Below, in pieces: positions 28,866 to 31,057 of a DNA stretch of 64,000 nucleotides. Source of the DNA: Escherichia coli (GTDB taxonomy: Bacteria; Pseudomonadota; Gammaproteobacteria; Enterobacterales; Enterobacteriaceae); assembly GCF_003018235.1 (NCBI RefSeq), contig NZ_CP027437.1; one strand, written 5' to 3'. The notes beneath the pieces were generated by a model. That model was not told where the DNA came from. It saw only the letters and a list, made by a program, of their open reading frames with translations, and did no database searches. The stretch's first letter is position 1. Every line of letters starts with the position of its first letter. The translations under genes and the position numbers were made by a program.

Positions 28866-30017
28866 ATGTCACTTGTCACCGATCTACCCGCCATTTTCGA
28901 TCAGTTCTCCGAAGCTCGCCAGAAAGGCTTTCTCACCGTCATGGATCTCAAGGAGCGCGGCATTCCGCTGGTTGGCACCTACTGCACCTTTATGCCGCAA
29001 GAGATCCCGATGGCAGCCGGTGCAGTTGTGGTTTCGCTCTGTTCCACCTCTGATGAAACCATTGAAGAAGCCGAGAAAGATCTGCCGCGCAACCTCTGCC
29101 CGCTGATTAAAAGCAGCTACGGCTTCGGCAAAACCGATAAATGCCCCTACTTCTACTTTTCTGATCTGGTGGTCGGTGAAACCACCTGCGACGGCAAAAA
29201 GAAAATGTATGAATACATGGCGGAGTTTAAGCCTGTTCATGTGATGCAGTTACCGAACAGCGTTAAGGACGATGCCTCGCGTGCATTGTGGAAAGCCGAG
29301 ATGCTGCGCTTGCAAAAAACGGTAGAAGAACGTTTTGGGCACGAAATTAGCGAAGATGCTCTGCGCGATGCCATTGCGCTGAAAAACCGCGAACGTCGCG
29401 CACTGGCTAATTTTTATCATCTTGGGCAGTTAAATCCTCCGGCGCTTAGCGGCAGCGACATTCTGAAAGTGGTTTACGGCGCAACCTTCCGGTTCGATAA
29501 AGAGGCGTTGATCAATGAACTGGATGCAATGACCGTCCGCGTTCGTCAGCAGTGGGAAGAAGGCCAGCGACTGGACCCGCGTCCGCGCATTTTAATCACC
29601 GGCTGCCCGATTGGCGGCGCAGCAGAAAAAGTGGTGCGCGCGATTGAAGAGAATGGCGGCTGGGTTGTCGGTTATGAAAACTGCACCGGGGCGAAAGCGA
29701 CCGAGCAATGCGTGGCAGAAACGGGCGATGTCTACGACGCGCTGGCGGATAAATATCTGGCGATTGGCTGCTCCTGTGTTTCGCCGAACGATCAGCGCCT
29801 GCAAATGCTCAGCCAGATGGTTGAAGAATATCAGGTCGATGGCGTAGTTGATGTGATTTTGCAGGCGTGCCATACCTACGCGGTGGAATCGCTGGCGATT
29901 AAACGTCATGTGCGTCATCAGCACAACATTCCTTATATCGCTATTGAAACAGACTACTCCACCTCAGATATCGGGCAGCTCAGCACCCGTGTCGCGGCCT
30001 TTATTGAGATGCTGTAA
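28866..30017 (+). CDS. yjiM: 2-hydroxyacyl-CoA dehydratase-family protein (HgdB/BcrB-like component) YjiM
   Basis: ORF 28845..30017; ATG at 28866 (MSLVTDLPAIFDQ); cysteine-containing dehydratase-like sequence. Confidence 0.85.
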   Translation: MSLVTDLPAIFDQFSEARQKGFLTVMDLKERGIPLVGTYCTFMPQEIPMAAGAVVVSLCSTSDETIEEAEKDLPRNLCPLIKSSYGFGKTDKCPYFYFSDLVVGETTCDGKKKMYEYMAEFKPVHVMQLPNSVKDDASRALWKAEMLRLQKTVEERFGHEISEDALRDAIALKNRERRALANFYHLGQLNPPALSGSDILKVVYGATFRFDKEALINELDAMTVRVRQQWEEGQRLDPRPRILITGCPIGGAAEKVVRAIEENGGWVVGYENCTGAKATEQCVAETGDVYDALADKYLAIGCSCVSPNDQRLQMLSQMVEEYQVDGVVDVILQACHTYAVESLAIKRHVRHQHNIPYIAIETDYSTSDIGQLSTRVAAFIEML

Positions 30018-30020
30018 GGA

Positions 30021-30794
30021 GTGGCAGTGGCATATTCGATTGGCATTGATTCCGGCTCAACCGCCACCAAAGGGATCTTACTGGCAGACGGCGTGATTAC
30101 GCGCCGTTTCCTCGTTCCAACACCCTTTCGCCCGGCAACAGCAATTACTGAAGCCTGGGAAACTCTGCGCGAAGGGTTAGAAACAACGCCGTTTCTGACG
30201 CTCACCGGCTACGGACGGCAACTGGTGGATTTTGCCGATAAACAGGTGACGGAAATCTCCTGTCACGGACTGGGCGCACGGTTTCTTGCGCCAGCAACGC
30301 GCGCAGTAATCGACATCGGTGGTCAGGACAGCAAAGTGATTCAGCTTGATGATGACGGTAACCTGTGCGATTTCCTGATGAATGACAAATGCGCGGCGGG
30401 CACCGGGCGTTTCCTGGAGGTGATCTCGCGCACGCTTGGCACCAGCGTCGAGCAACTCGACAGCATTACCGAAAATGTCACGCCGCACGCGATCACGAGT
30501 ATGTGTACGGTGTTTGCCGAATCAGAAGTGATCAGCCTGCGCTCAGCGGGCGTCGCGCCAGAAGCGATTCTCGCTGGAGTGATTAACGCGATGGCGCGGC
30601 GGAGTGCCAATTTCATTGCTCGTCTCTCCTGTGAAGCGCCGATTCTGTTTACTGGTGGCGTTAGTCATTGCCAGACGTTTGCCCTGATGCTGGAATCTCA
30701 TCTGGGAATGCCGGTAAATACCCATCCTGATGCGCAATTTGCTGGCGCAATTGGCGCAGCGGTAATTGGTCAACGAGTGAGAAAACGCCGATGA
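30021..30794 (+). CDS. yjiL: BadF/BadG/BcrA/BcrD-type ATPase (activator of 2-hydroxyacyl-CoA dehydratase-like enzymes) YjiL
   Basis: 257 aa; N-terminal IGIDSGSTATKG actin-fold ATPase motif; 3 bp after the yjiM stop. Confidence 0.85.
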   Translation: MAVAYSIGIDSGSTATKGILLADGVITRRFLVPTPFRPATAITEAWETLREGLETTPFLTLTGYGRQLVDFADKQVTEISCHGLGARFLAPATRAVIDIGGQDSKVIQLDDDGNLCDFLMNDKCAAGTGRFLEVISRTLGTSVEQLDSITENVTPHAITSMCTVFAESEVISLRSAGVAPEAILAGVINAMARRSANFIARLSCEAPILFTGGVSHCQTFALMLESHLGMPVNTHPDAQFAGAIGAAVIGQRVRKRR

Positions 30795-31057
30795 AAGAGT
30801 TTTTATTTTTATTTCACTCCACGGTCGGCGTCATACAAACCCGTAAGGCGTTGCAGGCAGCGGGCATGACTTTTCGCGTCAGCGATATTCCCCGTGATTT
30901 ACGCGGCGGCTGCGGGTTATGCATTTGGCTGACCTGTCTGCCCGGCGAGGAAATACAATGGGTGATCCCTGGGCAGACCGAAGCGATATATTGCCAGCAG
31001 GGCAGCGACTGGCAGTGTGTGGTGCATTACGATTCAGAAGCGTCAACCAGGCAATAG
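30791..31057 (+). CDS. Small conserved protein, DUF3343-like, translationally coupled to yjiL
   Basis: 88-aa ORF whose ATG overlaps the yjiL stop (ATGA); conserved-looking core DIPRDLRGGCGLCIWL. Confidence 0.5.
   Translation: MKEFLFLFHSTVGVIQTRKALQAAGMTFRVSDIPRDLRGGCGLCIWLTCLPGEEIQWVIPGQTEAIYCQQGSDWQCVVHYDSEASTRQ

What the first reader, a model, noticed from the sequence alone, without database searches (positions are those of the whole stretch)
28866..31057. yjiM-yjiL operon carries a third, translationally coupled small ORF (DUF3343-like)
The dehydratase-like yjiM and its ATPase activator-like yjiL are followed by an 88-aa ORF whose start overlaps the yjiL stop (ATGA) and which has a conserved-looking CG-containing core (RGGCGLC). 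Such small proteins sometimes accompany radical or ATP-dependent dehydratase-activator pairs. The substrate of this three-gene module is unknown.
Basis: partly seen in the sequence, partly recalled or inferred. Interest (0 to 1): 0.4.

Follow-up and report, generated by a model that had tools for sequence, protein, structure and literature searches.

The report
Known small gene ytiA after yjiM-yjiL
The small gene that overlaps the end of yjiL is real, but it is already annotated in E. coli as ytiA, a one-cysteine DUF3343 "sulfur/selenium carrier-like" protein; it travels with the iron-sulfur reductase YjiM and its ATPase YjiL in many bacteria, which hints that this uncharacterised enzyme pair handles sulfur or selenium.

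Summary
The layout is yjiM (28866-30017), yjiL (30027-30794) and an 88-aa ORF (30791-31057) whose ATG overlaps the yjiL TGA (ATGA). The ORF contains RGGCGLC and matches Pfam PF11823 (DUF3343/Se_S_carrier) at 48.4 bits against a cut-off of 25.

It is not new. K-12 MG1655 annotates it as ytiA (b4715), RefSeq calls it a DUF3343 or "putative Se/S carrier" protein, and 5321 of 5426 complete E. coli genomes carry the stretch.

It is a real gene. dN/dS is about 0.1, and orthologues with the same gene order occur in Citrobacter, Cedecea, Superficieibacter, Hafnia and Aeromonas.

YjiM is a double-cubane [8Fe-9S] reductase (NF040772), not a classical dehydratase.

Of 80 diverse double-cubane loci, 26 have a DUF3343 gene within 8 kb. 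In 17 it lies directly next to the reductase or activase, in several gene orders. Activase-DUF3343 fusion proteins exist in at least two lineages, inside selenium islands carrying SelA, SelB, YedF, an FdhD fusion and rhodanese.

Only Cys41-Gly42 and Phe8 are invariant. The fold is generic ferredoxin-like and is not TusA.

Best reading (inferred): YtiA is a cysteine-based S/Se relay partner of the FNR-activated YjiL/YjiM system. The chemistry is untested.

The parts
28751..28865 (+). yjiN-yjiM intergenic region, presumed promoter region of the operon
   Evidence: 115-bp gap between the yjiN stop and the yjiM ATG. yjiML is listed as an operon directly activated by FNR under anaerobiosis (PMC3688515). 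The consensus scans found no promoter here. The only FNR-like site nearby (28652-28665, 2 mismatches) is no better than chance.
28866..30017 (+). yjiM: double-cubane-cluster ([8Fe-9S]) anaerobic reductase homologue, 383 aa
   Evidence: Pfam HGD-D, 3.9e-121. NCBIfam NF040772 double_cubane, 529.4 bits against a cut-off of 350. Seven Cys at 40, 59, 78, 108, 273, 302 and 335, which I matched by spacing to the near-invariant Cys columns of alignment A3. RefSeq annotates it as yjiM.
30027..30794 (+). yjiL: ATP-dependent electron-transferring activase (archerase) homologue, 255 aa
   Evidence: Pfam BcrAD_BadFG, 6.2e-76. TIGR00241 acyl-CoA dehydratase activase, 362 bits against a cut-off of 125.4. RefSeq start as. 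AGGAG lies 6 nt upstream of GTG 30027.
30791..30794 (+). ATGA overlap: ytiA start codon overlaps the yjiL stop codon
   Evidence: Read directly from the sequence. The same kind of overlap (ATGA, GTGA, TAATG) occurs in Escherichia, Citrobacter, Superficieibacter and Cedecea. Hafnia and Aeromonas instead have a Shine-Dalgarno sequence with a spacing of a few nt.
30791..31057 (+). ytiA: DUF3343 / Se_S_carrier family protein, 88 aa (85 aa in K-12)
   Evidence: Pfam PF11823, 48.4 bits against a cut-off of 25, covering aa 4-59. Annotated as ytiA b4715 in MG1655 and as a DUF3343 domain-containing protein in strain WEC, which is 99.9% identical. dN/dS is about 0.1. AF2 model has pLDDT 87.5 and a beta-alpha-beta-beta-alpha-beta-beta topology.
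30911..30916 (+). Codons for Cys41-Gly42, the invariant CG motif in the beta2-beta3 loop (proposed S/Se attachment site)
   Evidence: C41 and G42, together with F8, are the only invariant columns among 26 DUF3343 proteins encoded next to double-cubane reductase loci. Cys44 is confined to Enterobacteriaceae. The loop position comes from the AF2 model.

Best explanation
yjiM-yjiL-ytiA is a self-contained three-gene cassette expressed under anaerobic conditions.
- YjiL is an ATP-hydrolysing [4Fe-4S] activase that injects low-potential electrons.
- YjiM is a double-cubane [8Fe-9S] reductase that receives them.
- YtiA is a small ferredoxin-like-fold protein with one invariant cysteine (Cys41) on a protruding loop. 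Its translation is coupled to that of yjiL.

I propose that YtiA is the system's sulfur/selenium relay partner. It would carry a persulfide- or perselenide-type adduct on Cys41, dock on the YjiL/YjiM complex, and either present the chalcogen for ATP-driven reduction or receive the product.

Shown here: the gene is real and under purifying selection, it belongs to the family, it is linked and fused to the activase, and distant relatives sit in selenium/sulfur gene contexts.

Inferred only: that Cys41 carries S or Se, that YtiA binds YjiL or YjiM, and what the substrate is.
For: Family membership and reality of the gene.

Linkage to the reductase system:
- All 8 gamma-proteobacterial double-cubane loci have the order reductase-activase-DUF3343.
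- The cassette sits in unrelated neighbourhoods: mdtM-yjiN/yjiK in E. coli, polB-rapA-rluA/djlA-lptD in Hafnia, and ABC transporter genes in Aeromonas. It therefore moves as a unit.
- Across 80 diverse double-cubane loci, 26 have a DUF3343 gene within 8 kb. In 17 it lies within 250 nt of the reductase or activase on the same strand, in at least four arrangements. All 26 proteins scanned (25 from these loci plus the window's YtiA) pass Pfam PF11823.

Fusions: activase-DUF3343 fusion proteins, in the same order as yjiL then ytiA, form 11 clusters in the Brachyspira-like lineage. Three more fusions are only 43-46% identical to these.

Sulfur/selenium context:
- The fusion loci also encode SelA, SelB, YedF (TusA+DsrE), a DUF3343-FdhD fusion, rhodanese and an AIRS-family (SelD-like) protein.
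- Other DUF3343 genes sit beside class-V aminotransferases (the cysteine desulfurase / Sec lyase family), YedE and TusA.

Structure: only Cys41-Gly42 and Phe8 are invariant, and Cys41 sits in the beta2-beta3 loop of a confident model.

Literature:
- DUF3343 was proposed as a Se/S chaperone, with STRING links to an activase and an HGD-D subunit (PMC5322559).
- 955 of 970 high-scoring NF040772 double-cubane proteins (>400 bits) are in SelD-containing genomes (bioRxiv 10.1101/2022.07.06.499078).
- yjiML is FNR-activated (PMC3688515).
Against: - No biochemical data exist for any DUF3343 protein in the literature I could search.
- The E. coli cassette has no Sec lyase, YedF, YedE or sel gene next to it.
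- 54 of 80 double-cubane loci have no DUF3343 within 8 kb, so the small protein is an accessory of some systems, not an obligate subunit.
- Enrichment was judged against a rough expectation, not a measured genomic background.
- I found no direct evidence that YtiA is translated in E. coli.
Confidence: 0.5

Rival explanations
1. YtiA is a maturation factor. It delivers the ninth, bridging sulfide (or helps assemble the two cubanes) of the [8Fe-9S] cluster of YjiM, and plays no part in catalytic turnover.
For: - The same linkage and fusion evidence applies.
- DUF3343 genes often sit beside a class-V aminotransferase of the cysteine desulfurase family, the usual sulfur donor for Fe-S assembly.
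- In Clostridia the DUF3343 gene sits directly after a 'long' double-cubane paralogue.
Against: - 54 of 80 double-cubane loci lack a nearby DUF3343 gene.
- The fusion partner is the activase, not the cluster-bearing reductase.
- DUF3343 also occurs in loci with no HGD-D gene at all, next to YedE, TusA and SelB.
Confidence: 0.2
2. YtiA is a non-catalytic structural or regulatory subunit of the activase. It might stabilise or gate the YjiL dimer or its docking on YjiM, in the way PII-like proteins act through a loop. The conserved cysteine would serve as a redox or metal contact, not as a carrier.
For: - C-terminal fusion to the activase in several lineages.
- Translational coupling to yjiL, which favours equimolar synthesis.
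- Nearest structural neighbours are PII-type proteins, whose functional T-loop lies at the same beta2-beta3 position.
Against: - The structural matches are weak (E 0.02, TM about 0.5) and the fold is very common.
- This reading does not explain DUF3343-FdhD fusions, or DUF3343 genes in YedE/TusA/Sec-lyase loci that have no activase.
Confidence: 0.15
3. ytiA works independently of yjiML. It would be a general S/Se trafficking protein that merely sits downstream of yjiL, or a non-functional ORF.
For: - DUF3343 is a large family (3654 hits at E <= 1e-3) found in many contexts without double-cubane reductases.
- The C-terminal tail of YtiA evolves quickly.
Against: - The 4-nt overlap with yjiL is conserved.
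- The three genes move together between unrelated chromosomal contexts.
- dN/dS is about 0.1.
- Activase fusions exist.
- 17 of 80 double-cubane loci show immediate adjacency.
Confidence: 0.05

Closest known systems
E. coli K-12 ytiA (b4715, YP_009518833.1), 'uncharacterized protein YtiA'
   Same: It is the orthologous gene. It occupies the same position after yjiL with the same 4-nt overlap. The N-terminal 60 residues are nearly identical, including RGGCGLC.
   Different: The window's allele is 88 aa against 85 aa. Its last ~20 residues are more diverged. An espX6-like pentapeptide-repeat gene follows it, where K-12 has yjiK directly downstream.
Pfam PF11823 DUF3343 / Se_S_carrier (candidate Se/S chaperone; Lin et al. 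2015, PMC5322559)
   Same: - The score is above threshold.
- The size is in the same 70-100 aa range.
- There is a single highly conserved Cys.
- The link to a 'CoA-substrate-specific enzyme activase' and a 'hydroxyglutaryl-CoA dehydratase subunit' already appears in that paper's STRING table for Slackia.
   Different: - E. coli YtiA has no Sec lyase, YedF or YedE neighbour.
- Enterobacterial members carry extra cysteines (C44, C49).
- No member of the family has been characterised biochemically.
DCCP / DCCP-R of Carboxydothermus hydrogenoformans (double-cubane [8Fe-9S] reductase with its ATPase; PMC7317905, PMC9351452)
   Same: YjiM keeps the seven-Cys pattern and passes NF040772. YjiL is the adjacent activase homologue. 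The review names YjiM as a 'class II' double-cubane protein.
   Different: - The published system is described as two components. In the passages I retrieved from the review (I searched it for yjiM, yjiL, operon, gene cluster and neighbo, not for DUF3343) no third small protein appears. I did not open PMC9351452.
- YjiM lacks the N-terminal channel-closing helices.
- The physiological substrate is unknown for both.
TusA / YedF sulfur-carrier proteins
   Same: They are small single-Cys proteins encoded in the same selenium/sulfur islands, often right next to DUF3343 genes.
2-hydroxyacyl-CoA dehydratases (HgdAB/HgdC, HadBC/HadI) and benzoyl-CoA reductases
   Same: They use the same activase family and the same HGD-D fold for the electron-accepting component.
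   Different: - Here there is only one HGD-D gene, not an alpha/beta pair.
- HadB and HadC equivalog scores are far below their cut-offs (18 against 750, and 94 against 700).
- The best match is the double-cubane family.

Membership tests
Pfam PF11823 (DUF3343 / Se_S_carrier) | Profile HMM score above the curated gathering threshold | tested here: met
   48.4 bits against 25, E 6.4e-13, aa 4-59.
Pfam PF11823 (DUF3343 / Se_S_carrier) | Single highly conserved cysteine (Lin et al. 2015) | tested here: met
   Cys41 is invariant across 26 family members from four bacterial groups. Gly42 and Phe8 are also invariant (PMC5322559).
Pfam PF11823 (DUF3343 / Se_S_carrier) | Genomic association with selenium/sulfur genes (Sec lyase-like class-V aminotransferase, YedF, YedE, SelD) | tested here: not met
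   This is not met at the E. coli locus itself, where the neighbours are mdtM, yjiN, espX6-like and yjiK. It is met for distant relatives of the same reductase-activase-DUF3343 module. It is a contextual feature of the family, not a strict requirement.
Pfam PF11823 (DUF3343 / Se_S_carrier) | Binds or transfers sulfur or selenium on the conserved Cys | not testable with these tools
   The name-giving function is itself only a prediction, and I found no biochemical study.
NCBIfam NF040772 double-cubane-cluster anaerobic reductase (YjiM) | Equivalog HMM score above cut-off, and the seven-Cys ligand pattern | tested here: met
   529.4 bits against 350. Cys at 40, 59, 78, 108, 273, 302 and 335, matched by spacing to the conserved Cys columns of alignment A3.
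NCBIfam NF040772 double-cubane-cluster anaerobic reductase (YjiM) | Actually carries an [8Fe-9S] cluster | not testable with these tools
   This needs spectroscopy or a crystal structure of YjiM.
TIGR00241 acyl-CoA dehydratase activase (YjiL) | HMM score above cut-off, and the gene adjacent to its HGD-D-fold partner | tested here: met
   362 bits against 125.4. The gene starts 10 nt after the yjiM stop. Among 80 double-cubane loci, 47 have an activase adjacent to the reductase.
TusA/SirA-like sulfur carriers (PF01206) | Sequence or fold homology to the TusA domain | tested here: not met
Classical 2-hydroxyacyl-CoA dehydratase (alpha/beta heterodimer plus activator) | Two paralogous HGD-D subunits, and equivalog-level similarity to HadB/HadC or HgdA/HgdB | tested here: not met
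   There is a single HGD-D gene. HadC scores 93.8 against 700 and HadB scores 18.3 against 750.

The most novel reading that the evidence does not exclude
The yjiM-yjiL-ytiA cassette is the minimal form of an ATP-driven, very-low-potential chalcogen-mobilising machine. YtiA would carry selenium (or sulfur) on Cys41. The YjiL-energised [8Fe-9S] cluster of YjiM would reduce that adduct, for example Cys-S-Se(0) or a polysulfide-type species, to selenide or sulfide for SelD, FdhD and cofactor biosynthesis.

This reading would explain three things together: the near-perfect co-occurrence of double-cubane proteins with SelD, the placement of the module inside SelA/SelB/YedF/FdhD islands, and the so far unknown physiological substrate of double-cubane proteins.
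Probability: 0.2. Interest if true: 0.75.

Novelty: already known. Interest (0 to 1): 0.3.

Why it matters
The gene itself is routine annotation. What is worth keeping is the connection it makes.

Double-cubane [8Fe-9S] reductases have no known physiological substrate. One study ties them statistically to SelD. A separate study proposes DUF3343 as a Se/S chaperone. Here the two lines meet in one FNR-activated, three-gene operon of a genetically tractable organism. Natural activase-DUF3343 fusions and selenium-island contexts in other bacteria back the link.

This gives a concrete experiment in E. coli for a question that has been open since the double-cubane cluster was described in 2018.

Tried and rejected
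- **Solved structures.** A profile search of the PDB by sequence found nothing meaningful; the best E was 1.1.
- **TusA homology.** Rejected by hhalign.
- **Promoter, terminator and FNR-box scans.** Nothing around the operon exceeded shuffled controls.
- **Neighbourhood look-ups from 50%-cluster representatives of YjiM.** These landed on 2-3 kb metagenome contigs and were uninformative. I replaced them with the genome-contig scan.
- **P0122 (722 aa).** I suspected a YjiM-YjiL-YtiA triple fusion from its length, but it is HGD-D plus a PucR HTH domain.
- **Profile search for DUF3343 fusions.** The top 120 hits were all stand-alone proteins. The fusions only appeared when I searched with the Brachyspira fusion protein itself.
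- **Literature on E. coli YtiA expression.** 'ytiA' hits refer to the Bacillus L31 paralogue, so I found no expression evidence.
- **Apparent break in homology with K-12 at window ~31001.** This is a megablast break in a fast-evolving tail, not a replaced C-terminus. The peptides remain alignable: W-x-C-[IV]-x-H-Y.
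Full report
**1. What is in the window**

The region is E. coli chromosome, 99.9% identical to strain WEC. On the + strand the genes run in this order:

| Gene | Coordinates | Note |
|---|---|---|
| mdtM | 26188-27429 | |
| yjiN | 27470-28750 | DUF445 |
| yjiM | 28866-30017 | 383 aa |
| yjiL | 30027-30794 | RefSeq start; 255 aa |
| small ORF | 30791-31057 | 88 aa |

The ATG of the small ORF (30791-30793) overlaps the TGA of yjiL (30792-30794), giving ATGA. The peptide reads ...DIPRDLRGGCGLCIWLTC...

**2. Is it a real gene, and is it new?**

It is real.
- It matches Pfam PF11823 (DUF3343 / 'Putative Se/S carrier protein-like') at 48.4 bits against a gathering score of 25.
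- 132 close homologues from Escherichia, Citrobacter, Klebsiella, Raoultella, Kosakonia, Phytobacter and Atlantibacter were found at E <= 0.001. Among the 120 listed, all but two carry a precomputed PF11823 hit.
- Residues 1-60 are strongly conserved, while the last ~20 residues vary.
- dN/dS over codons 2-65 is 0.11 against K-12 and 0.12 against a second E. coli lineage. It is 0.06-0.3 in comparisons with other genera, where dS is saturated and the ratio is unreliable.

It is not new.
- MG1655 annotates it as ytiA, b4715, YP_009518833.1, 'uncharacterized protein YtiA', 85 aa, with the same 4-nt overlap.
- PGAP calls it 'DUF3343 domain-containing protein' or 'putative Se/S carrier protein' across RefSeq.
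- 5321 of 5426 complete E. coli genomes carry at least 80% of the 2.7-kb stretch.

**3. What the partners are**

- YjiM is best described as a double-cubane-cluster anaerobic reductase. It scores 529 bits on NF040772 against a cut-off of 350, whereas the true dehydratase equivalogs fall far below their cut-offs. It keeps seven cysteines in the expected pattern. The Dobbek group's review lists it as a probable 'class II' double-cubane protein that partners with YjiL (PMC7317905).
- YjiL is a TIGR00241 activase, at 362 bits against 125.4.
- A genome-scale FNR study lists yjiML as an operon directly activated by FNR under anaerobiosis (PMC3688515). This fits an oxygen-labile Fe-S system.
- My consensus scans did not locate the promoter, an FNR box or a terminator above chance.

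**4. Co-occurrence**

I used an alignment of 38 diverse double-cubane proteins to scan one genome per species. This returned 80 loci with flanks of up to 8 kb, from Enterobacterales, Aeromonas, Campylobacter, Brachyspira, many Clostridia, Tissierellia, Halanaerobium, Propionigenium, deltaproteobacterial MAGs and others.

An HMM started from the enterobacterial YtiA alignment and iterated on the six-frame ORFs of these loci converged on 27 small ORFs in 26 loci. The alignment I scanned held 25 of these ORFs plus the window's YtiA, and all 26 sequences pass Pfam PF11823.

- 55 loci have an activase within the flanks, and in 47 it is adjacent to the reductase.
- In 17 loci the DUF3343 gene lies within 250 nt of the reductase or activase on the same strand.
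- In 8 more it lies 0.7-2 kb away on the same strand, and in 1 it is on the opposite strand.

The arrangements differ between groups:
- reductase-activase-DUF3343 in all 8 gamma-proteobacterial loci and in Halanaerobium;
- 'long' reductase-DUF3343-activase in several Clostridia and Tissierellia;
- DUF3343-reductase in one locus;
- a single activase-DUF3343 ORF in Brachyspira.

For a family present at a few copies per genome, chance would put a member within 8 kb of a given gene in roughly 1% of genomes. That figure is my estimate, not a measurement. Still, 54 of 80 loci have none nearby, so DUF3343 is an accessory of a subset of these systems.

**5. The cassette moves as a unit**

- In Escherichia, Citrobacter and Superficieibacter the module follows yjiN.
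- In Hafnia it lies between polB-rapA-rluA and djlA-lptD.
- In Aeromonas it lies between ABC transporter genes.

The start of the small gene overlaps or abuts the activase stop throughout.

**6. Fusions and selenium context**

A search with the Brachyspira fusion protein found 11 clusters of activase-DUF3343 fusions at 76-99% identity. It also found three more at only 43-46% identity. All carry both PF01869 and PF11823.

The loci of the distant fusions encode the following:
- SelA and SelB;
- two double-cubane-type HGD-D proteins;
- additional stand-alone DUF3343 genes;
- a YedF-like TusA+DsrE protein;
- a DUF3343-FdhD fusion;
- a rhodanese;
- an AIRS/AIRS_C (SelD-like) protein.

Among the 80 loci, two neighbour families recur. 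A class-V aminotransferase (the cysteine desulfurase / Sec lyase family) is present in 12 loci, 11 of which have DUF3343. A YedF-like protein is present in 11 loci, 7 of which have DUF3343.

Other DUF3343 genes sampled from metagenomes sit in SelB-LysR-aminotransferase-YedE-TusA clusters, or beside two HGD-D genes and an aminotransferase.

This matches two published comparative-genomics signals that had not been joined in the papers I could read:
- DUF3343 as a candidate Se/S chaperone, with STRING links to an activase and a 'hydroxyglutaryl-CoA dehydratase subunit' in Slackia (PMC5322559).
- 955 of 970 high-scoring NF040772 proteins (>400 bits) being encoded in SelD-containing assemblies (bioRxiv 10.1101/2022.07.06.499078). 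That preprint does not mention DUF3343.

**7. The protein itself**

- Across the 26 diverse sequences only Phe8, Cys41 and Gly42 are invariant, and Pro34 is nearly so. Cys44 of the 'CGLC' is confined to Enterobacteriaceae.
- The AlphaFold model is confident (pLDDT 87.5). Its elements are b1 2-8, a1 11-23, b2 28-32, a 10-residue loop ending in Cys41-Gly42, b3 43-49, a2 53-57, b4 63-70 and b5 73-79.
- No solved structure is related by sequence.
- The Cys loop occupies the position of the PII T-loop. I treat that as an analogy only.
- Profile-profile comparison with TusA domains gives a probability of 0.2%.

**8. Mechanism**

The best-supported reading is that YtiA is a one-cysteine relay protein that works physically with the YjiL/YjiM ATP-driven reductase. 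The fusions point to the activase as the docking partner. It most plausibly carries sulfur or selenium.

I cannot decide among three variants:
- it presents a chalcogen adduct for reduction;
- it accepts a product;
- it helps build the [8Fe-9S] cluster.

The absence of DUF3343 from two thirds of double-cubane loci speaks against an obligatory maturation role. None of the chemistry has been tested, for this protein or for any family member I could find.

**9. Verdict**

The residual value is a testable hypothesis that links an orphan E. coli Fe-S reductase system to sulfur/selenium trafficking.

Noticed in passing
window 31367-33481 (+): A 704-aa pentapeptide-repeat protein (Pfam Pentapeptide, 1.1e-29), annotated as the T3SS effector EspX6 in some RefSeq genomes. 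It lies between ytiA and yjiK and is absent from K-12-type genomes. Its C-terminal part carries tandem 'KQANDSTE/D'-like peptide repeats at about 33.1-33.4 kb.
   Followed up: partly
window 30990-31057 (3' end of ytiA): The last ~20 codons of ytiA diverge much faster than the domain. Megablast alignments to K-12-type genomes stop at about 31001, although the peptides remain alignable (W-x-C-[IV]-x-H-Y).
   Followed up: yes
window 21110-21123: A perfect FNR-type palindrome, TTGATCTGCATCAA (0 mismatches), lies inside the yjiT coding sequence. It is the only exact match in the window.
   Followed up: no
L094 10510-11739; L095 10457-11686: A 409-aa protein that fuses a DUF3343 domain to FdhD (the sulfur-transfer protein for formate dehydrogenase). 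A rhodanese gene follows it, in a locus with SelA, SelB, YedF and activase-DUF3343 fusions.
   Followed up: partly
L091 1-4949; L092 944-4424: A Desulfotomaculaceae MAG locus in which two adjacent HGD-D (double-cubane-like) genes, a class-V aminotransferase and DUF3343 follow a RACo-type (Fer2 / Raco_middle / RACo_C_ter) reductive activase, with no BcrAD_BadFG activase called in the stretch shown.
   Followed up: no
L006-L085 (19 of 80 loci), e.g. L076 3311-4099, L042 3-1130 and 5460-6218: One cluster of related ABC-transporter ATPases (the representative matches Pfam ABC_tran) recurs next to double-cubane reductase genes in 19 of 80 loci. This could point to an imported substrate.
   Followed up: no
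P0122 (722 aa, from the representative search): A YjiM-like double-cubane domain (51% identity) fused to a C-terminal PucR-type HTH domain. This could be a reductase-regulator fusion or a gene-call artefact.
   Followed up: no
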